From Mustelus asterias (Eukaryota): a stretch of DNA of 64,000 bases. Positions 1-57,494 of this stretch are shown one piece after another. Where the stretch lies: NCBI RefSeq assembly GCF_964213995.1, contig NC_135807.1, forward strand, positions 116,126,001 to 116,190,000, given 5' to 3'. A program made the translations under genes and the position numbers. Position 1 is the stretch's first letter. The number at the start of each line of letters is the position of its first letter. A model generated the notes under the pieces. That model was not told the DNA's origin. It ran no database searches and saw nothing but the letters and a program-made list of their open reading frames with translations.

Positions 1-256
1 TGATCCCTACATATTTACCCGCTAATCCCTCTAACCTACGCATCTCAGGACACGAAGGGGCAATTTTAGCATGGCCAATCAAACTAACCCGCACATCTTT
101 GGACTGTGGGAGGAAACCGGAGCACCTGGAGGAAACCCACACAGACACGAGGAGAATGTGCAAACTCCACACAGACAGTGACCCAAGCCGGGAATCGAAC
201 CCAGGTCCCTGGAGCTGTGAAGCAACAGTGCTCACCACTGTGCTACCGTGTCGCCC
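1..256 (-). mobile_element. HE1/V-SINE-type tRNA-derived SINE (3' end cut by window edge)
   Basis: Minus strand: tRNA-like head with A box and GGTTCGATTCC B box, then V-domain-like core (GTGGGTTTCCTCC...TTTCCTCCCACAGTCCAAAGATGTGCGGGTTAG); near-identical to 713-1059. Confidence 0.9.
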
Positions 257-1300
257 CTTGACCAGGTGACATTAAAGGAACAGCAGTATCTTTCTAATTC
301 AGGCTAATGTGCGATTTGGATGAAAACTTGGAGGTACTGGTGTTTTCATGTGCCTGCTGTCTATGTCCTATTAGAAGGTAGAAGCTGTGCATTTAGGATA
401 TGCTTTCAAAGAAATATTGGTGAGTTGCTGTAGTACATCTTGTGCATCAGATGGTACAGACAACAGACATTGTGTGCTCATGGTAAAGGGATTGATTATT
501 TAAGATGGTGAATGGGATGTCAATTAAGTGTGCTTTTTCCGAGGTGGTGTTGAACTTTTTGAGTAGTGTTGGAGTTGTTGCACTCATTCAAGCAAGTGGA
601 GAACATTCCTTTGCACTTGTAGATATTGGAAATTGTTTTAAGGAGTCAGGAGGTAAGTTAATAGATGCAGAATACCAAAGTTCAACTTGCTCTTGTAGCC
701 ACACTATTTATTGGGCGGCACGGTAGCACAGTGGTTAGCACTGCTGCTTCACAGCTCCAGGGACCTGGGTTCGATTCCCGGCTTGGGTCACTGTCTGGGT
801 GGAGTTTGCACATTCTCCTCGTGTCTGCGTGGGTTTTCTCCGGGTGCCCCGGTTTCCTCCCACAGTCCAAAGATGTGCGGGTTAGGTTGATTGGCCATGC
901 TAAAAATTGCCCTTAGTGTCCCGAGATGTGTAGGTTAGAGGGATTAGTGGGTAAATATGTAGGGATATGAGGGTAGGGCCTGGGTGGGATTGTGGTCGGT
1001 GCAGACTCGCTGGGCCGAATGGCCTCTTTCTGTACTGTAGGGTTTCTATGATTTCTATGGCTGGTCCAATTCAGTTTCTGGTCAATGGTGACCCCATTAT
1101 GTTGATGTTGGGGAATTCAATGATGGTAATACCATTGAATGTCAAAGAGAGGGGATTATACCCTTTCTTATTAGATGTGGTCATTGCTTGGCACTTGTTT
1201 GGCATAAACGTTACTTACCACTTATGAATCGAAGCCTGAAAGCTATAAGGGTTTGCCACATTTTCTGAAGAGGAGTTGCAAATGGAACTGAATACTGTAC
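257..1300 (-). mobile_element. Old degenerate non-LTR (LINE) RT-region fragment, interrupted by the SINE at 713-1059
   Basis: Sequence resembles the RT region of the LINE family seen at 45630-47939 and reads through across the SINE; no open frame. Confidence 0.5.
713..1059 (+). mobile_element. HE1/V-SINE-type SINE, full length
   Basis: GGGCGGCACGGTAGCACAGTGG head, B box GGTTCGATTCC, V-like core, CR1-like tail GGGCCGAATGGCCT...TTCTATG repeats. Confidence 0.92.
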
Positions 1301-15391: not shown

Positions 15392-15619
15392 TGATGCACT
15401 ATCAATTACGATACGAGGACTCCAGCGAGTGAGTGAAATAACAGGCTTTTAATCACAAAGAACTGGAGCACACCCTTGTAGCTAACCGGGCCCAGACTGA
15501 GGCAAGGAGGAGGAACCATCACCTTTATACCTCGTTCAGGTGGAAAGGGAGGAGTCTCGGGCCAGGTGCAGCAGGGGTGTGTCCAGGCATACAACATGTA
15601 ATTACAGTGGTTCACCACA
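15392..15619 (-). repeat. 3' LTR of Gypsy family 1
   Basis: Direct repeat of 19648-19895; adjacent polypurine tract AAAGAGGGGGTGAA on the minus strand. Confidence 0.97.
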
Positions 15620-15740
15620 TTCACCCCCTCTTTAAAAAAAGAGTCCGGCGGGGGTGAGATGGATGGAACAATATATACAGAGGCATGAAGATATATATAT
15701 ATATACAAGAGTCACGAAACTGAAGTAAGGCGTCGTCCCC

Positions 15741-17702
15741 TCACAGGTTCAGTCTGTCGGGCGGCTTGATCAGTCGCTGTGACCGCCGCAGTACCGGTTG
15801 TGGTGTTGCTTCCGATGGCAGGGTGGAACCGCTCGAGTCCGCCGTCGTCCCTTCTGGTCGGGTCCTGTGAGGCGACTCCGGGGGCTCAGGCGAGCTGCAT
15901 ACAGGGGACAAAGACGTAAGTGGACCTGGTGCTACCTGAACAACAGAGGGGTCTAGGGATGTGGGGTGGGGGGTCATAGTGGGCTCCGGGGCACCCGCAG
16001 GCACCAGGTCCCGGATAGAGACCGTGTCCTCCCGCCCATCGTGGTATGCCACATAGGCATATTGGGGGTTGGCATGGAGGAGCTGGACCTTTTCAACCAG
16101 GGGGTCTGACTTATGGGGTCGTACATGCCTCCGGAGCAGAACGGGGCCTGGGTACGTCAGCCACGGCGGTAGTGAGATTCCCGAGGAGGACTTCCTAGGG
16201 AAAGCAAACATCCGCTCATGGGGGGTGGCATTGGTAGCCGGACACAGGAGGGACCTAATTGAGTGCAGTGCATCTGGGAGGACTTCTTGCCAGCGGGTGA
16301 CTGGAAGACCTTTAGACCGTAGCGCTAGTAAAACGGCCTTCCAGACTGTCGCGTTCTCCCTCTCTACCTGCCCGTTTCCCCTGGGGTGATAGCTGGTAGT
16401 CCTACTCGAGGCTATGCCCTTAGAGAGCAGGTACTGACGCAGCTCATCACTCATGAAGGAGGATCCCCGGTCGCTGTGGATGTAGTTAGGGTAACCGAAC
16501 AGGGTGAAGAGGCCGTGCAGGGCCTTGACGACCGTGGTTGAAGTCATATCCGAGCAGGGAATGGTAAAAGGGAATCGGGAGTACTCATCTATAACATTGA
16601 GGAAATAGATGTTGCGGTCAGAAGAAGGAAGGGGCCCTTTGAAATCAATGCTGAGGTGTTCAAAGGGGCGGGTGGCTTTTATGAGGTGTGCCCTGTCCGG
16701 CCAATAGAAGTGCGGCTTACACTCCGCGCAGACCGGGCAGTGTCTGGTTATAGACCGGACGTCCTCAACAGAATGGGGCAGGTTGCAGGCCTTAATAAAG
16801 TGGTAGAGCCTGGTGACTCCCGGGTGACAGAGGTCATTGTGGAGAGTCTGTAGTTGGTTCGCTTGTGCGCTGGCACATGTTCCGCGAGACAGAGCGTCCG
16901 GAGGCTCATTGAGCTTCCCGGGTCGGTATAAGATATCATAATTGTAGGCGGAGAGCTCAATCCTCCACCTCAGTATTTTATCATTCTTAATCTTGCCCCT
17001 CTGCGCGATGTTGAGCATAAAAGCCACCGAACGTTGGTCCGTGAGCAAGGTGAACCGTCGGCCAGCTAAGTAGTGGCGCCAGTGTCGCACTGCTTCGACG
17101 ATGGCCTGAGCCTCCTTCTCGACAGAGGAGTGTCGAATTTCCAAGCCTTGGAGGGTTCGTGAGAAGAAGGCTACGGGTCTGCCTGCCTGGTTAAGGGTGG
17201 CGGCCAGGGCGAAGTCAGACGCGTCACTCTCCACCTGGAAGGGGATTGACTCGTCCACAGCGTGCATCGTGGCCTTCGCGATGTCCGCTTTGATGCAGTC
17301 GAAGGCCAAGCGGGCCTCTCCCGACAGGGGAAAAAGGGTGGATTTGATAAGTGGACGGGCCTTATCCGCATAATTCGGGACCCACTGGGCATAGTATGAG
17401 AAGAAGCCCAGGCATCTCCTCAGTGCTTTAAGAGTGGTGGGAAGGGGAAGTTCCATGAGGGGGCGCATGCGGTCAGGATCGGGGCCGATGACCCCGTTCT
17501 CCACTACACATCCCAGGATGGCGAGGCGGTGAGTGCGGAAGACACACTTCTCCTTATTGTAGGTCAGATTTAGGAGAGCGGCCATGCGAAGGAATTTATT
17601 GAGTTTTGTGTCGTGGCCCTGCTGATCATGGCCGCAGATGGTGACGTTATCCAGGTACGGGAAGGTGGCCCGCAGCCCGTTCTGGTCCACCATTCGGTCC
17701 AT
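15741..17702 (-). CDS. pol: Gypsy Pol: RT C-terminal half, RNase H, integrase (frameshifted from the upstream part)
   Basis: YLDN, VESDAS..EKEA..TDQ..DALSR, HHCC (LHNDLCH..CPVC), DDE (IDFKGP, HSDRGS, GQVERE); no chromodomain. Confidence 0.95.
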   Translation of the reverse strand: MDRMVDQNGLRATFPYLDNVTICGHDQQGHDTKLNKFLRMAALLNLTYNKEKCVFRTHRLAILGCVVENGVIGPDPDRMRPLMELPLPTTLKALRRCLGFFSYYAQWVPNYADKARPLIKSTLFPLSGEARLAFDCIKADIAKATMHAVDESIPFQVESDASDFALAATLNQAGRPVAFFSRTLQGLEIRHSSVEKEAQAIVEAVRHWRHYLAGRRFTLLTDQRSVAFMLNIAQRGKIKNDKILRWRIELSAYNYDILYRPGKLNEPPDALSRGTCASAQANQLQTLHNDLCHPGVTRLYHFIKACNLPHSVEDVRSITRHCPVCAECKPHFYWPDRAHLIKATRPFEHLSIDFKGPLPSSDRNIYFLNVIDEYSRFPFTIPCSDMTSTTVVKALHGLFTLFGYPNYIHSDRGSSFMSDELRQYLLSKGIASSRTTSYHPRGNGQVERENATVWKAVLLALRSKGLPVTRWQEVLPDALHSIRSLLCPATNATPHERMFAFPRKSSSGISLPPWLTYPGPVLLRRHVRPHKSDPLVEKVQLLHANPQYAYVAYHDGREDTVSIRDLVPAGAPEPTMTPHPTSLDPSVVQVAPGPLTSLSPVCSSPEPPESPHRTRPEGTTADSSGSTLPSEATPQPVLRRSQRLIKPPDRLNL

Positions 17703-18595
17703 TTCACGCTGGAAGACCGAAACCCCATTGGTGACGCCGAAGGGAACCCTAAGTGATAGAGGCGGCCATCCGCCTCGAAAGCCGTATATTTGCGGTCCTC
17801 CGGGCGGATGGGGAGCTGGTGGTAGGCCGATTTGAGGTCAATCGTGGAGAACACCCGGTATTGCGCAATCCGATTGACCATGTCGGATATGCGCGGAAGG
17901 GGATACGCATCCAGCTGCGTGTACCGGTTGATGGTCTGACTGTAATTGATGACCATCCGGTGTTTCTCCCCAGTTTTGACCACCACCACCTGCGCTCTCC
18001 AGGGGCTGGTGCTCGCCTCAATGATCCTTTCCTTCAGGAGCCGCTGGACCTCAGTCCTAATGAAGGTCCTGTCCCCCGCACTGTACCATCTGCTGTTGGT
18101 GGCAATGGGCTTACACTCGGGGGTGAGGTGTTCAAATAGCGAGGGAGGGGTGACTTGAAGGGTCGAAAGGCTGCAAGTGGTGCGTGGTGGGCAGTCTAGG
18201 AACTGTGGGTTGCAGACGGAGATCGGGGGAAGAGGCCCGTTGTACTGCAACGTGACACTCCTAAGATGGGTCAGGAAATCGAGCCCGAGGAGGACGAGAG
18301 CGCAGAGGTGTGGCAGCACCAGGAGCTTAAAATTTTCGTACTCGGTCCCCCGAACTGTAAGGGTCACCACACAGTGCCCGAGGACATCCACCGAGCGGGA
18401 CTTTGAGGCCAAGGAAATGGTTTGTTTGACTGGCAGCACAGAAAGGGCATAGCGGCGCACTGTATCGGGGGGGATGAAACTCTCCGTACTCCCGCAGTCG
18501 AACAAACAATTTCCCACGTGGCCGTTTACCTGGATGTCCATCATGGACCTGGCGAGTTGATGCAGACGGGATTGGTCTAGCTGGACCGCTGCCAC
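17570..18595 (-). pseudogene. pol: Gypsy protease and RT N-terminus
   Basis: LFDCGSTESFI protease motif, SPWRAQVVVV, DLKSAYHQ; frameshift near 17750. Confidence 0.93.
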
Positions 18596-18620
18596 CGTGG
18601 ATCCCGGAGAATGATTGACC

Positions 18621-18823
18621 GGCGTCTAAAATGGCAGCTCCCTTGTCTCACATGTGGCCGACGGCGTCCAAAATGGCGGTTCCCTTGACTCACACGCGGC
18701 CGATGGCCGTCCAAAATGGCGGTTCCCTTGACTCACACGTGGCCGATGGCGTCCAAAATGGTGGCTCCCTTGACTCACACGCGGCCGATGGCGTCCGAAT
18801 TTGTGGTTCCCTCGGGTCGCACG
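18621..18823 (-). repeat. 42-bp coding tandem repeat (~4.8 copies) between Gag zinc knuckle and protease
   Basis: Units start at 18621, 18663, 18705, 18748 and 18790; encode CESREPPFWTPSAT-like 14-mers. Confidence 0.92.
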
Positions 18824-18829
18824 CTACAC

Positions 18830-19619
18830 TGTTTGGCTTCGAGGACGACTTTGTCCTGCAGACTTTAACGTAGTGGCCTTTCTTTCCGCACCCAAAGCAG
18901 AACACTTCCCTCGCCGGGCAGCGTTGTCGGGGGTGCTTCCCCAGGCCGCAAAACTAGCACTTCAGACCCGCAACAGCCGCAGCAGTCGAATCGTTGGTGG
19001 GGCGCTGTGTGGCGTAAGTCTGTGGCCCTCCTAGATACTGGGGTGGCAGCGGCCGTGGTGCCCACGATGTAACCGCATGGTCGGGTGCGTACGCCTCGAG
19101 GTTATGGGATGCCACTTCTAGGGATTCAGCGAGTGTCACAGTTTTTGGTAGATCTAGCCCACCTTGCTCTAGCAGTCGCTGCCGAATGTAGTTGGACGAA
19201 ATGCCCGTAACGTAGGCATCGCTGATTAAGTCCTCCGTGTACTGCGCGGCGGATACAGCCTTGCAGTTACAGGCCCTGCCGAGTACCCGTAGTTCGCAGA
19301 GAAACTGTGCGCTCGATTCTCCCGGCCGCTGTCTTCGAGTAGCCAGAAGGTGCCTGGCGTAGACTTCATTTGTCCGTTTACTGTACTGGCTCTTTAGGAG
19401 CTCTAGCGCGTCCCTGCACATCTCAGCGTCACGGATGGTGGCATAAACCATGTCGCTTACCCAGGCGTGGAGCACGTGCAGCTTGTCTGAATCGGACTGG
19501 ATGGCAACAGAGGCTTCGAGGAAGGCTTCAAAGCACTTCAGCCAGTGATCGAAGCTGTTGGCAGCTCCCACAGCTTGCGGATCCAGGTTTAATTTATCGG
19601 GCTTTAGAATTTGCTCCAT
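18830..19619 (-). pseudogene. gag: Gypsy Gag with CCHC zinc knuckles (frameshifted near 18960)
   Basis: MEQILKPDKL..FDHWLKCF; CFGCGKKGHYVKVC; homologous to the family 2 Gag. Confidence 0.92.
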
Positions 19620-19647
19620 TCTGTTTTTTTATCTTTACGATTAAAAT

Positions 19648-19895
19648 TGATGCACCATCAATTAAGATACGAGGACTCCAGCGAGTGAGTGAAATAACAG
19701 GCTTTTAATCGCAAAGAACTGGAGCACACCCTTGTAGCTAACCTGGCCCAGACTGAGGCAAGGAGGAGGAACCATCACCTTTATACCTCGTTCAGGTGGA
19801 AAGGGAGGAGTCTCAGGTGGAAAGGGAGGAGTCTCGGGCCAGGTGCAGCAGGGGTCTGTCCAGGCATACACATGTAATTACAGTGGGTCACCACA
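19648..19895 (-). repeat. 5' LTR of Gypsy family 1
   Basis: Direct repeat of 15392-15619; TATA-like GTATAAAG and ATTAAA on the minus strand. Confidence 0.97.
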
Positions 19896-44931: not shown

Positions 44932-45625
44932 GGGGCTGATTCTCCCATCCCGCTGCACTGAGTTTTTTAGCACAGCTGGCTGGGAGATTTATGCGGTGCC
45001 GGATTAGCGCAATCTGCGTTGGGCACCCAGCCCCGAGCGCATCTCCCAGCACTGGATTTCCGGTGCCATCAGCTCTGTGCCAATTTATGCAGCCCTTCAT
45101 TTTAATATTATTTAAATGACATTAGCGGGCCTGGGACTGAAATCTCTGGGCCCGCTAGCTTCTACCCCACGCCAGAAGTATTTCACTCCAGTGGGGATTA
45201 CTCCAGCTCCCCACTTGCAGGGAGCTAGTGGCCCAAACCCGCTGAAGTGAAAGGGGGCAATCGGGCGGCGGGGGAATGCTGTTGGGCATTGGCGCCTTGG
45301 CAGTGCCAGCCTGGCTCCCTGGCACTGCCCAAGAGGAGTTTTAACAACACCAGGTTAAAGTCCAACAGGTTTATTTGGTAGCAAATACCATTAGCTTTCG
45401 GAGCGCTGCTACCAAATAAACCTGTTGGACTTTAACCTGGTGTTGTTAAAACTCTTACTGTGTTTACCCCAGTCCAATGCCGGCATCTCCACATCATGTC
45501 TGCCCAAGAGGGCCAAATTCCAATGCCCAGAGGGCACCTTGGCACTGCCCACTAGGCATGGGGCAGTGCCAAGGGGTGGGCCCTAATGGGGGTAGGGCCT
45601 GATGGGGGTGGTGCCACTGGAGGGC
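44932..45625. mobile_element. Non-autonomous Harbinger-like element (one end)
   Basis: GGGGCTGATTCTCCC resembles the TIR at 59397; GGCACTGCC-rich interior. Confidence 0.55.
45336..45499. mobile_element. Penelope family B fold-back mini-insertion
   Basis: Perfect 48-bp inverted arms 45336-45383 and 45407-45454; 12-bp TSD CTGCCCAAGAGG; matches 51450-51520. Confidence 0.88.
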
Positions 45626-52510: not shown

Positions 52511-53072
52511 CTTTTCTCTCCTACAGATGCTGCCAGACCTGCTGAGATTTTCCAGCGTTTTGCCTTTTGGTTTCAGATTCCAGCATCCGCAATAATTTGC
52601 TTTTAATTTGCTTTTAAGCAAATTTCCTGAATTTCCAACCGTTTTAAAGTAAAGTGTCCGTTTCGAATTTCAGCCAGTTCGGTTGAGTGTGACACAACCT
52701 TTTAATTGGTTGGCACAAGGATAGAACTAATCAGCTGTGTGGAGCAGTGATGTGCATCAATTGAACACGAGGCACGAAGCTTCGGTAACAGAAGGCTTTT
52801 ATTGTCTAACAATGGAACTAATAGAACGTAAACACACTATCCCAGACTGACGAGGTCCCGCCCGAGCAGGGGGTCTTATACCTCTCCCAGGAGGCGGAGT
52901 CCGACTGGGATGTGCCACAACAGTAACAACCACAGGTGTATCAATCCCACCCTAGACCAACAACAACATTAGAACAATCCCACAGTGGGAACCAACGATG
53001 GTTCACCACATTCACCCCTCCTTTGAGAACAAAGGCCGGCGGGGTACGAAAACAGACTAAAATGTCAACAGA

Positions 53073-54772
53073 TTATAAGTTCAGACGGTCTGGAGGACCG
53101 CACCGTCGTTGTGACCTCCTCAATACCGGCGGTGACACCGGAGTAGGTGCTTGCGATGGCGTTCTCCCCAAAACAGCGTCCAGCTGTTCTCCCACGGACT
53201 CACGGGCCGGTTGACCCTGATGAAGCGGTAGTGCAGGGGATCCCGGTACATTCTGCAATGGTGCCGATCTCCGGGGCTCAGGCAAGCTGTGCATTGGAGT
53301 AAAACTGTTAAGCACTGGTCCCGGTGCTGTCCGCGCGACGTCCGGGGGAGAAATAAGTGATAAGGGATTCGTCACTGGGGGTATGGGAGCGACAGGAGTT
53401 GCTACGTCCCCTGCGGGCGCCAGGTCTCGGATCGAGACTGTGTCCTCTCGCCCGTCAGGATATGCCACATAGGCATACTGAGGGTTGGCGTGGAGGAGGT
53501 GGACCTGTTCGACCAAGGGGTCGGACTTGCGGGCCCTTACATGTCGCTGCAGAAGGACGGGTCCTGGGTACGTCCTGGGAGACTGGAAGGCCTTTGGACT
53601 TCAGCGCCAATAGGACAGCCTTCCAGACTGTAGCATTCTCTCTTTCCACCTGTCCATTACCCCTAGGGTTGTAACTCGTGGTCCTACTAGAGGCAATCCC
53701 GTATGAGAGCAGGAATTGCCTCAAGTCATTACTCATGAACGACGAGCCCCTGTCGCTATGGATATAGCTGGGGTACCCGAACAGGGTAAAAAGATCACGG
53801 AATGCCTTGATCACCGTGGCAGTCGATGTGTGCGCGCAGGGGACAACAAATGTGAACCGGGAGTACTCATCTATTATGTTCAGAAAGTACACGTTCCGAT
53901 CTGTTAAAATCCACACTCAGCCTCTCGAAGGGGCGAATGGCCTTGACCAAATGTGCCCGGTCAGGTCGGTAAAAGTGCGGTTTGCATTCCGCGCAAATCC
54001 GACAGCTCCTTGTCACCGACCTGACGTCCTCCACCGAGTAAGGCAGGTTGCGGGCTTTGACAAAGTGGTAGAGCCGAGTGACCCCAGGATGGCACAGGTC
54101 ATTATGGAGGGCGTTCAAGCGATCCTCCTGCATAGTAGCGCATGTTCCGCGCGAGAGGGCATCCGAGGGCTCATTGAGTTTCCCTGGACGATACATGATA
54201 TCGTAGTTATAGGTGGAGAGTTCAATTCTCCACCGCAAGATCTTATCATTCTTGATCTTGCCCCTCTGCGTGTTGTTGAACATGAACGCCACGGACCGCT
54301 GGTCCGTGATCAGGGTGAACCGCTTCCCCGCCAGGTAATGGCGCCAGTGTCTGACGGCCTCCACAATGGCCTGGGCCTCCTTTTCCACCGCTGAATGCCG
54401 AATTTCGGGGCCTTGGAGGGTGCGGGAAAAAAACGCGACGGGCCTGCCCGCCTGGTTTAGTGTGGCGGCCAGGGCGAAATCAGATGCATCGCTTTCCACC
54501 TGAAAAGGGATGGATTGGTCTACCGCGTGCATCGTGGCTTTCGCGATGTCGTGTTTCAATTCCTTGAAGGCCAATTGGGCCTCTGGCGTGAGTGGAAAAG
54601 TCGTGGACTTAATAAGCGGACGGGCTTTGTCCGCGTAGTTGGGGACCCACTGCACATAATAGGAGAAGAAGCCTAGGCATCTTCTCAGTGCTTTTGCGCT
54701 AGCGGGCAAGGGAAGTTCAGCAAGGGGGCGCATACGGTCTGGATCAGGGCCAATGACCCCGTTTTCCACCAC
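53073..54772 (-). pseudogene. pol: Gypsy Pol RNase H and integrase, broken by small deletions
   Basis: ORFs 53867-54772, 53455-53916 and 53073-53516 align to family 1 Pol; a segment is missing near 53578. Confidence 0.95.
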
Positions 54773-56917
54773 TTATCCCAGGATGGCTAACCGGCGCGTA
54801 CGGAATACACACTTCTCCCTGTTGTAGGTCAAATTCAGGCGAGATGCAGTGCGTAAAAAGTTCTGGAGATTTGTGTCATGGTCCTGCTGATCACGGCCGC
54901 AGATGGTGACATTATCCAGGTACGGGAAGGTAGCCCGCAGCCTGTTCTGGTCCACCATTTGGTCCATAGCACGCTGGAAGACCGAGACCCCATTGGTGAC
55001 ACCAAATGGAACCCGAAGAAACTGATACAGATGACCATCCGCCTCAAAGGCCGTGTAGTGTCGGTCCTCTGGGCGAATGGGGAGTTGGTGGTAGGCGGAC
55101 TTAAGGTCTATGGTGGAGAACACCCGGTACTGCGCAATCTGATTGACCATATCAGATATGTGCGGGAGGGGATACGCATCCAGCTGCGTATATCGATTAA
55201 TGGTCTGACTGTAATCAATGACCATCCGGGGTTTGTTCCCGCTCTTGACCACCACAACCTGTGCTCTCCACGGACTAACACTGGGCTGTATGATCCCTTC
55301 TTTGAGGAGTCGCTGAACCTCAGATCTGATGAAGATCCAATCTTCAGCGCTGTAATGCCTACTTTTAGTAGCGATGGGCTTGCAGCCTGGTACCAGATTC
55401 TTGAATAAAGAGGGTGTGGTGATCTTTAATGTAGAAAGATTGCATGCGGGACGCTTTGGACAATTTGGAGACTGCAGCTGTTCCCCTACTGTCAGCGAAG
55501 GGAGTGGCCCACCGTACTGTAGGATCACACTCTTCATGTGGACCATAAAGTTTAGTCCGAGGAGAATTGGTGCGCAAAGATGCGGCAACACAAGGAGCCT
55601 GAATTGCTCGTAAATTGTGCCTTGCACTTTCAAGGTTACCACACAACGTCCTAGCACAGGGACAGACCGGGACCTTGATGCCATAGAGATTGTCTGTTTG
55701 GCAGGTTGAATCTGGAGTCCACACCTCTTTACAGTGTCAGGGTGAATAAAGCTCTCAGTGCTCCCGCTGTCAAACAGACAATAAATTGCACGACCATTTA
55801 CCTGTATATCCATCATCGAACAGTCAAGCCTGTGGTGCTTAGCCTGGTTCAGGGTGATCGACGCCACCGTTGGTCCGTGATCGTCACTGCAGGCAGCTGA
55901 GGTCGATGCTGAGGACCCCTGCTGGTCACTCATGGTCATCGTCGACCAAAATGGCCACCCCCATGAATCGCACATGGTTGAGGGCGCCAAACGTAGCGAC
56001 TCCTGGTGGTCATCCTCCTCCGACTCCGTCGACCACAATGGCGTCGTCCTGGACTCGCACGTGGACGAACCCCGTGAGTACTTCGACGTCGATGGTGATG
56101 ATCCCCGTTCCGAAGGGTCACAGGCCGCACTGCCGTTCTTGGGCTTCGATCTGCACACCTTCGCATAATGCCCCTTTTTACCGCATAGGTTATAGACCAC
56201 CGCTTTAGCGGGACACTTTTGTCGTGGATGCTTGGCTCCTCCGCAGAAGTAGCACCGCGGGCTGCATGGGGCTGCAGCCGTCGTCGGGTCTACATGGGAG
56301 CACGCCATAATACTGCACGTCGAGCCCGTGGGGCGAGGAGGGATTTGCGACTGCTCCTGCCACGTTGTCTCCACATGGTCCTCCGGATACAGGACCAAGC
56401 TCTTCGAAGCCGCCTCAAGCATTTCAGCCAATTCCATAGCTTGGGTCAGGTTGAGATTCCCCTTTTCTAGCAGCTTGAGACGGATGTATGAAGACCCTAC
56501 CCCTGCCACAAACGCATCTCGGGCAAGGTCATACATGTACTGCTCAGCCGACACAGCTTTGCAGTCACAGCCCCTGGCAAGCTGCAAGAGCTCATTGGCG
56601 TAATCCTCCATGGTTTCGCCCGACTGCCGACGTCGTGTAGCGAGGAGGTAACGAGCGTGGATCTCGTTGGGAGGTTTCGTGTAGCGCTTTTTTAAAAGCT
56701 CGAGGGCCCTCGGGTAAGTGGTGGCCGCACGGATCGGGAGGTAGACTGTGTCGCTTACCCTTGCATGGAGGACCCGGAGTCTGTCATCATCTGTGGTGAC
56801 CGCTGCGGAGGCTGCCAGGTAGTCTTCAAAACACTTCAGCCAGTGGTCGAAGGTGTTAGAAGCGCCCACCGCACGTGGATCTAGCGTCAGACGTTCTGGC
56901 TTAAGGATTTGCTCCAT
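54773..56917 (-). CDS. gag-pol: Gypsy Gag-protease-RT single ORF (ends at a frameshift)
   Basis: MEQILKPERL start at 56917, zinc knuckles, LFDSGSTESFI, DLKSAYHQ, PFGVTNG, YLDN. Confidence 0.95.
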   Translation of the reverse strand: MEQILKPERLTLDPRAVGASNTFDHWLKCFEDYLAASAAVTTDDDRLRVLHARVSDTVYLPIRAATTYPRALELLKKRYTKPPNEIHARYLLATRRRQSGETMEDYANELLQLARGCDCKAVSAEQYMYDLARDAFVAGVGSSYIRLKLLEKGNLNLTQAMELAEMLEAASKSLVLYPEDHVETTWQEQSQIPPRPTGSTCSIMACSHVDPTTAAAPCSPRCYFCGGAKHPRQKCPAKAVVYNLCGKKGHYAKVCRSKPKNGSAACDPSERGSSPSTSKYSRGSSTCESRTTPLWSTESEEDDHQESLRLAPSTMCDSWGWPFWSTMTMSDQQGSSASTSAACSDDHGPTVASITLNQAKHHRLDCSMMDIQVNGRAIYCLFDSGSTESFIHPDTVKRCGLQIQPAKQTISMASRSRSVPVLGRCVVTLKVQGTIYEQFRLLVLPHLCAPILLGLNFMVHMKSVILQYGGPLPSLTVGEQLQSPNCPKRPACNLSTLKITTPSLFKNLVPGCKPIATKSRHYSAEDWIFIRSEVQRLLKEGIIQPSVSPWRAQVVVVKSGNKPRMVIDYSQTINRYTQLDAYPLPHISDMVNQIAQYRVFSTIDLKSAYHQLPIRPEDRHYTAFEADGHLYQFLRVPFGVTNGVSVFQRAMDQMVDQNRLRATFPYLDNVTICGRDQQDHDTNLQNFLRTASRLNLTYNREKCVFRTRRLAILG

Positions 56918-57494
56918 ACTCTCCTTTCTTTTTCCCTTCCGTCGAGAGCTTAATGTTAGACAATAAAATTGATGCGCATCAATTGAACACGAGGCACGAA
57001 GCTTCGGTAACAGAAGGCTTTTATTGTCTAACAATGGAACTAATAGAACGTAAACACACTATCCCAGACTGACGAGGTCCCGCCCGAGCAGGGGGTCTTA
57101 TACCTCTCCCAGGAGGCGGAGCCCGACTGGGATGTGCCACAACAGTAACAACCACAGGTGTATCAATCCCACCCTAGCCCAACAACAACATTAGAACAAT
57201 CCCACAGTGGGAACCAACGATGGTTCACCACAAGCAGATAAGGCTGTTTGCTAAATTTTATTTATTTTCCTCATTTCCACCTTTCTCGGTGTCATTGTTT
57301 TCCTCCACATTTCACATAATCGTTGCATGTGACTCTTAAATGTAACAGTGCGGTTCTTCAAGAGCTGAGGGGATAATTCATCCAGTGTCCTTTCTACACT
57401 GTAGGCCATGCCTTGACTTGCATATTATTGTACCATACAAAATGAACTCTCGGGAAGATTTCTGTGAGGCTGTGCCCTCTGGGTTGAGTTGCAC

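What the first reader, a model, noticed from the sequence alone, without database searches (positions are those of the whole stretch)
56954..57033. Gypsy family 2 has the same 15-bp PBS:LTR duplex with a different sequence (compensatory covariation)
Seen: 56954-56968 (TGTTAGACAATAAAA, again 1 nt from the LTR) is a perfect inverted repeat of 57019-57033, covering AATAAA on the sense strand. The 15-mer differs from family 1 at several positions and the LTRs are otherwise largely dissimilar, yet length, geometry and pairing are kept. The Gag ATG follows within ~30-50 nt of the LTR in both families. Inference: selection acts on the RNA structure rather than on complementarity to a fixed tRNA.
Basis: partly seen in the sequence, partly recalled or inferred. 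Interest (0 to 1): 0.85.

Follow-up and report, generated by a model that had tools for sequence, protein, structure and literature searches.

The report
Self-priming Gypsy leaving palindromic LTR insertions
In a very abundant family of jumping genes in this fish-like genome, the site where DNA copying must start pairs with 15 letters of the element's own end-repeat instead of a tRNA end, so the element likely primes itself, and the genome also holds mirror-image insertions that likely arose when copying folded back on this pairing.

Summary
Confirmed. 56954-56968 is a perfect inverted repeat of 57019-57033. It is the primer-binding position of a Ty3/Gypsy element on the minus strand. The junction motif occurs 11,040 times in the genome (control 0). 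In 94 copies, positions 1-15 pair Watson-Crick in 83-94 copies and position 16 in only 26. The letters change on both sides, mostly by transversions, and G:U pairs are rare. A second, unreported helix between the LTR and the gag start codon does carry G:U (38 of 92). So the 15-bp match looks copied from arm to arm, not kept by compensatory selection alone. New here: 148 sites where the primer site runs on as an inverted LTR; 54 of 82 examined are palindromic insertions with exact 5-bp target duplications. Best reading: Tf1-like self-priming in a separate, chromodomain-less animal clade whose reverse transcriptase mostly reads YxDN. The duplex lies about 37 nt inside the predicted RNA start and hides the 5' poly(A) signal. 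Which repeat copy primes is unresolved; no RNA data. I found no paper on this clade's priming, but this scan noted the same signature earlier in other animal genomes.

The parts
56970..57232 (-). 5' LTR, 263 bp, TG...CA
   Evidence: 3 mismatches to the 3' LTR
57097..57104 (-). TATA-like box (predicted)
   Evidence: lies 29-31 nt before the initiator in most copies where both were read
57064..57072 (-). Initiator-like TCAGT; predicted RNA start near 57070, about 37 nt before the duplex
   Evidence: no RNA data
57034..57040 (-). LTR arm of a second helix, predicted to pair with the gag start codon context
57019..57033 (-). LTR arm of the 15-bp duplex, including the AATAAA poly(A) hexamer; candidate self-primer
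56969..56969 (-). one-base spacer between LTR end and primer site
   Evidence: required by the pattern and invariant in alignment A2
56954..56968 (-). primer-binding site, complementary to the LTR arm, no TGG start
53073..56917 (-). gag-protease-RT-RNase H-integrase region. Start codon at 56915-56917. This copy is interrupted by a stop near 54773 and by frame changes in the integrase part. RT motif YLDN; no chromodomain hit
53011..53024 (-). polypurine tract
52748..53010 (-). 3' LTR; its copy of the 15-mer is at 52797-52811 and has no primer site downstream
57233..57237 (-). 5-bp target duplication CTGCT (partner 52743-52747)
19632..19717 (-). same duplex in the related element at 15392-19895 (arms 19703-19717 and 19632-19646; target duplication GCCAT)

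Best explanation
The 15 bases next to this Gypsy element's 5' LTR are complementary to a stretch of its own LTR that includes the poly(A) signal, and the element likely uses that stretch of its own RNA, not a tRNA, to prime minus-strand DNA. Shown: position, polarity, complementarity, covariation over many subfamilies, and integrated fold-back products. Inferred steps: (1) RNA starts at the initiator about 37 nt upstream of the duplex. (2) The 5' repeat folds onto the primer site, which hides the 5' poly(A) hexamer, and a second helix covers the gag start codon. (3) The RNA is cut at the end of the duplex, probably by the element's RNase H as in Tf1, and the freed 3' end is extended over U5. 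(4) Plus-strand DNA later copies the primer, so the primer site is rewritten from the LTR and both arms change together without G:U intermediates. (5) That plus strand ends in a sequence complementary to itself; sometimes it folds back, copies U3, and integrase inserts a palindrome with two U3 ends.
For: The site is one base from the LTR end in 11,040 matches, control 0. Watson-Crick pairing at positions 1-15 in 83-94 of 94 copies and 26 of 94 at position 16; all four pair types at positions 8, 9 and 13; own pairing 7.27 of 8 against at most 4.81 in 2,000 shuffles of 37 types. RNAalifold finds both helices unaided; 99.5% of cells paired, 0 of 500 shuffles as high, slid controls 36-56%. Of 2,311 copies of one group, 12 are discordant at position 11 under the two patterns tried. 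ATTAAA copies: 94 of the 100 listed (155 in all) carry the matching primer-site change (counted by eye; 29 of 30 loci), mostly one lineage. Fold-backs: 148 matches; of 82 examined, 54 are palindromes with an exact 5-bp target duplication and 4 more have one mismatch; 17 primer-site types among 67 palindromic insertions. Hexamer predicted hidden in the 5' context (unpaired probability 0-0.26) and mostly open in the 3' context. One copy has ten A's 18 nt after the duplex end, a candidate poly(A) site that would leave a short repeat for strand transfer. Tf1 cDNA often keeps a single-stranded primer-site copy at its 3' end (PMC11042837, passages).
Against: No RNA, cDNA or biochemical data; no RNA holder was listed. 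A template switch anywhere inside the 15-bp tract gives the same joint, so fold-backs do not locate a cut and could arise by snap-back without self-priming; two carry 4-9 leader bases before the switch. No private compensated change was caught: 0 of 34 at position 6 (G/C), 0 of 30 examined (65 found) at position 7, 0 of 3 at position 12; most of those checked are 5'-LTR-only changes. Linkage and arm-mismatch tests did not tell the 5' from the 3' repeat. Six of 82 fold-backs (five independent) continue into the polypurine tract and integrase, which fits the 3'-end rival at least as well. The poly(A) case is one locus and its control also gave one match. Copies are related, so counts overstate independent events.
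Confidence: 0.6

Rival explanations
1. Self-priming by the 3' end of the genomic RNA. The 3' repeat, cut just after the hexamer, pairs with the primer site and is extended. The 37 nt upstream then serve as the homology for strand transfer.
For: Explains why the duplex lies inside the repeat and not at the RNA 5' end. Six of 82 fold-backs run on into inverted polypurine tract and integrase sequence, so a long plus-sense 3' end was copied. One of them, L198, also has integrase-PPT-U3-R ending at the hexamer and continuing as minus strand.
Against: The 5' repeat is 50 nt away and is predicted to pair first. A plus strand ending in the primer-site copy could anneal to a second RNA's 3' repeat and give the same products. 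Simple palindromes outnumber these about 10 to 1.
Confidence: 0.2
2. The duplex only hides the 5' poly(A) signal and organises the leader. Priming uses another RNA or site, and the arms are kept matched by selection or by snap-back correction of the inverted repeat.
For: The hexamer is inside the duplex and predicted hidden only at the 5' end. Only AATAAA and ATTAAA form lineages. Zig-zag products show that strands switch template at this repeat. Poly(A) hairpins of retroviruses are a precedent (recalled).
Against: The LTR's right end is set by the primer's 3' end (established LTR mechanism), so the primer must pair with these bases. They take at least 17 forms that track the LTR and lack TGG. 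Hiding a hexamer does not need a fixed one-base spacer or a 15-bp cut-off. I did not screen the host's tRNA set.
Confidence: 0.12
3. Plain Tf1 geometry: transcription starts at the first base of the 15-mer, which is then simply the RNA's 5' end.
For: Explains the sharp 15-bp length with no trimming step. Tf1-group self-primers are at the RNA 5' end (10.1101/2022.12.06.519325, passages). Tf2 uses alternative start sites (PMC5341516, passages).
Against: TATA and initiator motifs keep 29-31 nt spacing and point to a start about 37 nt upstream. The start-codon helix needs bases upstream of the 15-mer: 89% of 92 copies pair at 6 or more of 7 positions against 4.6% at other LTR positions.
Confidence: 0.08

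Closest known systems
Tf1, Tf2, Tj1 and the Tf1/sushi group (self-primed Ty3/Gypsy chromoviruses)
   Same: Primer site next to the 5' LTR is complementary to the element's own LTR; no tRNA end; Gypsy domain order; primer-site copy at the plus-strand 3' end (papers seen as passages: PMC4600332, 10.1101/2022.12.06.519325, PMC11042837).
   Different: No chromodomain hit. The duplex is mostly 15 bp (11 nt in Tf1, recalled), is predicted about 37 nt inside the RNA, and contains the poly(A) hexamer. The flanking 'pretzel' helices are not conserved. RT is mostly YxDN. The clade is long-branched and separate from all other sampled Gypsy sequences, though no named Tf1 or sushi sequence was in the tree.
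TAR/Houba/Osr-1 copia and Tcn1 elements of plants (self-priming predicted from sequence)
   Same: Self-priming inferred from LTR-primer-site complementarity (PMC6317226, passages); shows the trick arose more than once.
   Different: Other superfamily or chromovirus lineage, other hosts.
Named animal Gypsy clades: Mag A/B/C, CsRN1, Cigr-1, MolGy, PolGy
   Same: Animal hosts, short LTRs, single gag-pol frame. LTR start matches the CsRN1 motif TGTGGYG (PMC3601003, passages). Gag is 26% identical to an unnamed element that I read as Mag-like from recalled motifs.
   Different: Mosquito Mag elements use tRNA-Leu, -Ser or -Arg (PMC3286476, passages). No reference sequences could be had, so the clade may already bear one of these names; the mollusc and annelid surveys have no 'PBS' or 'self' in their main text.
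Retroviral 5' poly(A) hairpin and U5:AUG pairing (recalled, no call)
   Same: 5' hexamer hidden by pairing; gag start codon paired with LTR sequence.
   Different: Retroviruses prime with tRNA; here the hiding strand is the primer site itself.

Membership tests
Ty3/Gypsy LTR retrotransposon | TG...CA LTRs, polypurine tract, target duplication | tested here: met
Ty3/Gypsy LTR retrotransposon | domain order protease-RT-RNase H-integrase | tested here: met
   best solved relative is Ty3 RT, E 2e-51
Tf1/sushi group | primer site complementary to own LTR, not to a tRNA end | tested here: met
   host tRNA set not screened
Tf1/sushi group | self-primer at the very 5' end of the RNA | tested here: inconclusive
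   motifs predict a start about 37 nt upstream; no RNA data
Tf1/sushi group | chromodomain at the integrase C-terminus | tested here: not met
   no Pfam chromo hit in a full-length natural frame or in the window's integrase ends
Tf1/sushi group | three-duplex 'pretzel' around the primer site | tested here: not met
   a U5-end hairpin forms in some subfamilies only; the consensus fold shows the primer helix and a start-codon helix
Tf1/sushi group | RT phylogeny inside chromoviruses | tested here: inconclusive
   34 clade rows form one side of a branch, support 100, quick tree of 61 rows; rows were picked by likeness to the query and no named chromovirus was included
Tf1/sushi group | RNase H cut that frees the primer | not testable with these tools
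   RNase H domain present; cut not observable
Mag / CsRN1 / Cigr-1 / MolGy clades | RT phylogeny with the named reference elements | not tested
   no reference sequence available; supplement search of PMC6238403 gave names and accessions only

The most novel reading that the evidence does not exclude
A large animal Gypsy clade outside the chromoviruses evolved self-priming on its own, in a new layout: one 15-bp duplex inside the repeat hides the 5' poly(A) signal, yields the primer, and is re-templated every cycle. A second helix gates the gag start codon, the RT works with asparagine in place of the second YxDD aspartate, and failed cycles leave integrase-inserted palindromes of about 500-620 bp. 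In the boldest form (about 0.2) the RNA's 3' end is the primer.
Probability: 0.5. Interest if true: 0.75.

Novelty: new variant of a known kind. Interest (0 to 1): 0.58.

Why it matters
Self-priming is shown by experiment only for fission-yeast Tf1 and is assumed for its kin. Here a clade with about 11,000 junctions in one vertebrate genome, and protein relatives in rays, sharks, a sea anemone, a tunicate and nematodes, carries the signature in another layout. The genome keeps fossil by-products of the reaction, which make the mechanism testable from RNA ends and cDNA. It warns that perfect covariation can come from copying, not selection. It names a source of near-perfect 250-bp inverted repeats in a vertebrate genome. 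It also offers a natural YxDN RT: the matching Ty1 change abolishes transposition (PMC2148107, abstract), yet this family expanded recently.

Tried and rejected
tRNA priming: rejected on the missing TGG and the many LTR-tracking forms; the host tRNA set was not screened. Assembly artefact for palindromes: rejected, since flanks are unique, target duplications exact and arms average 98.5% identity, like ordinary LTR pairs at 98.1%. Joints at the duplex end as proof of a cut: rejected, because a switch anywhere in the tract looks the same. Linkage of the 15-mer to U3 or to U5: flat, 0.32-0.42 with all segments in 59 copies enriched for discordant ones. Extra arm mismatches in the repeat's first 37 nt: 2.3% against 1.4% in palindromes, but ordinary LTR pairs lean the same way, 2.2% against 1.7%; not diagnostic. 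Multi-part discordant copies: 12 fetched; they look like subfamily recombinants, with 5' LTR, 3' LTR and primer site mixed in several ways, and fit no single scheme. An apparent CATAAA lineage was mostly one insertion duplicated with its flanks (8 of the 19 read). Whole-leader folding is only modestly better than shuffles (z -1.7 and -2.2). Metagenome and viral contig scans gave no clade member, so the duplex outside this genome is untested here. Ten paper searches found no account of this clade's priming, of YLDN in Gypsy RT, or of such palindromes; none of them used a palindrome or fold-back term. Levin's original papers and the Xenopus genome supplement were not held. Repbase notes were out of reach; I recall, unverified, that some Repbase animal Gypsy entries mention self-priming, so prior notice there is possible.

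Full report
The observation. The window holds two related Ty3/Gypsy elements on the minus strand, at 52748-57232 and 15392-19895, each with TG...CA LTRs, a polypurine tract and a 5-bp target duplication. Pfam gives protease, RT, RNase H and integrase in Gypsy order and no chromodomain. Bases 56954-56968 are the exact reverse complement of 57019-57033. On the sense strand the LTR arm ends with the poly(A) hexamer plus one A, and the other arm begins one base after the LTR: the primer-binding position, with the polarity a primer needs. It does not start with TGG. None of 40 shuffles of the window gave such a repeat. The other element has 14 Watson-Crick pairs and one G:U, with ATTAAA.

The family. 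The host genome is 3.7 Gb; the closest named proteins come from rays and sharks. The junction pattern hexamer-GC-N35-65-LTR end-TTTTA matches 11,040 times, the reversed control 0 times. Many copies have frames over 1,300 codons, and LTR pairs are 95.5-99.7% identical in the 35 of 40 fetched copies that could be parsed, so the expansion is recent. Protein relatives include a sea anemone, a tunicate and nematodes. In a quick tree of 61 rows the 34 clade rows sit on one long branch with support 100; they were chosen by likeness to the query and no named Tf1 or sushi sequence was present, so this shows distinctness, not placement. The RT motif reads YLDN in all 34 copies where it was read and YxDN in 92 of 118 relatives with a readable motif, of 121; it aligns with YLDD of Ty3.

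Covariation. In 94 copies with gag downstream (drawn from four searches, so not a random sample), positions 1-15 pair Watson-Crick in 83-94 copies and position 16 in 26; 61 duplexes are 15 bp, 18 are 16 bp, 9 are 13 bp. Seventeen perfect 15-mer types occur; positions 8, 9 and 13 show all four pair types. Re-pairing LTR arms with other types' primer sites drops the mean from 7.27 to 4.14 of 8 (maximum 4.81 in 2,000 shuffles). On 26 representative copies RNAalifold recovers the helix; 99.5% of cells pair, no shuffle of 500 reaches that, and slid registers give 36-56%. Related rows inflate these controls. Genome-wide, one group has 2,311 copies and 12 are discordant at position 11 under two patterns. 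ATTAAA copies carry the matching primer-site change in 94 of 100 listed, mostly one lineage.

Copying or selection. G:U pairs in the primer helix are sporadic (at most 3 of 94 per position), and steps between 19 perfect types are 16 transversions to 7 transitions (a crude spanning-tree count). The primer helix does not look so. I infer that one arm is copied from the other, as a primer site is copied from its primer. Against this: no private compensated change was found at positions 6, 7 or 12 (0 of 34, 0 of 30 examined of 65, 0 of 3). Most of those checked were changes in the 5' LTR alone, which neither model would expect to be compensated. The LTR arm of the second helix could also be a downstream promoter element (recalled consensus, not tested).

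Fold-back insertions. One of the first 30 loci was an LTR, one A, and then an inverted copy of the LTR from the hexamer back to its first base, with a 5-bp target duplication. A pattern for this class matches 148 times, control 0, about 1.3% of the junction count, a rough lower bound. I examined 82 of the 100 listed (5 picked as unusual, the rest in list order): 54 palindromes with an exact target duplication, 4 with one mismatch, 5 without, 6 that continue into inverted polypurine tract and integrase sequence (two share flanks), and 13 other rearranged forms. They come from 17 primer-site types, and arm identity equals that of ordinary LTR pairs. They have two U3 ends and no internal genes, so they were likely made during reverse transcription and inserted by integrase. 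One long form ends at an LTR-end look-alike inside inverted integrase sequence and still has a target duplication (L199). The simplest source is a plus strand that ends in the primer-site sequence and folds onto its own repeat. Tf1 cDNA often has such an end (PMC11042837, passages). Since the plus strand gets that end by copying the primer, this supports an element-derived primer. It is not proof: snap-back after strand transfer gives the same joint.

Where the primer comes from. A TATA box and an initiator 29-31 nt apart predict an RNA start 50-54 nt before the duplex end. So the duplex is inside the repeat, unlike Tf1's 5'-terminal primer (10.1101/2022.12.06.519325, passages). Folding predicts the hexamer hidden in the 5' context and mostly open in the 3' context in both window elements. 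One locus has ten A's 18 nt after the duplex end (single case, control also 1). I favour a cut of the 5' repeat at the duplex end (0.6), then priming by the RNA's 3' end (0.2), poly(A) hiding alone (0.12) and plain Tf1 geometry (0.08): about 0.88 for self-priming in some form. Two tests meant to split the first two were flat.

What is known. Self-priming is shown for Tf1 and inferred for the Tf1/sushi group and some plant lineages (PMC4600332, PMC6317226, passages). This works like Tf1 but fails the chromodomain and pretzel tests, so I do not file it in that group. Ten searches found no paper on this clade's priming; most subscription papers, Repbase and GyDB were out of reach, and the clade may already have a name. 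Earlier notes of this scan report self-pairing primer sites in Gypsy elements of other animals, one in a ray-like genome; they are not independent support. Two look-ups for palindromic or snap-back insertions among those notes found none. The DNA of relatives outside this genome was not obtained.

Verdict. A real feature; a new variant of a known mechanism. Its added value is the palindrome class, the contrast between the two helices, and the YxDN RT. Interest 0.58.

Noticed in passing
window 54932-55252 (-) and homologues: RT active-site motif is YLDN, not YxDD, in 34 of 34 copies read and YxDN in 92 of 118 relatives; YxDD and YxDN are interspersed in the tree. The same change in Ty1 abolishes transposition (PMC2148107, abstract).
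   Followed up: partly
window 57034-57040 with 56911-56917 (-): Conserved LTR arm that pairs with the gag start codon; could gate translation against packaging.
   Followed up: partly
L088 (G000:C5:91210529 region): Solo LTR with a 5-bp target duplication and about 22 bases of minus-strand sequence inserted right after the hexamer.
   Followed up: partly
L274, L275, L135: The 5' LTR 15-mer differs from the 3' LTR's and from the primer site at 1-2 positions while the flanking LTR bases shown are identical; a very short conversion tract, unexplained.
   Followed up: partly
L351-L370: The first A of the hexamer is changed to C in the 5' LTR alone in at least eight independent insertions; possible mutation or copying hot spot.
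   Followed up: no
G000:C10:51.6-54.4 Mb (L353-L358), C598, C693: One insertion with identical flanks occurs eight times: a segmental duplication array.
   Followed up: no
window 45336-45454: Hairpin with 48-bp perfect arms; the same repeat flanks L201. Possibly a Penelope-type terminal repeat (recalled, not tested).
   Followed up: no
window 18623-18834: 42-bp tandem repeat, about five copies, inside the gag-protease linker of the other element.
   Followed up: no
window 3-966: Two tRNA-SINE-like copies head to head, 254-nt arms 94% complementary, 456 nt apart.
   Followed up: no
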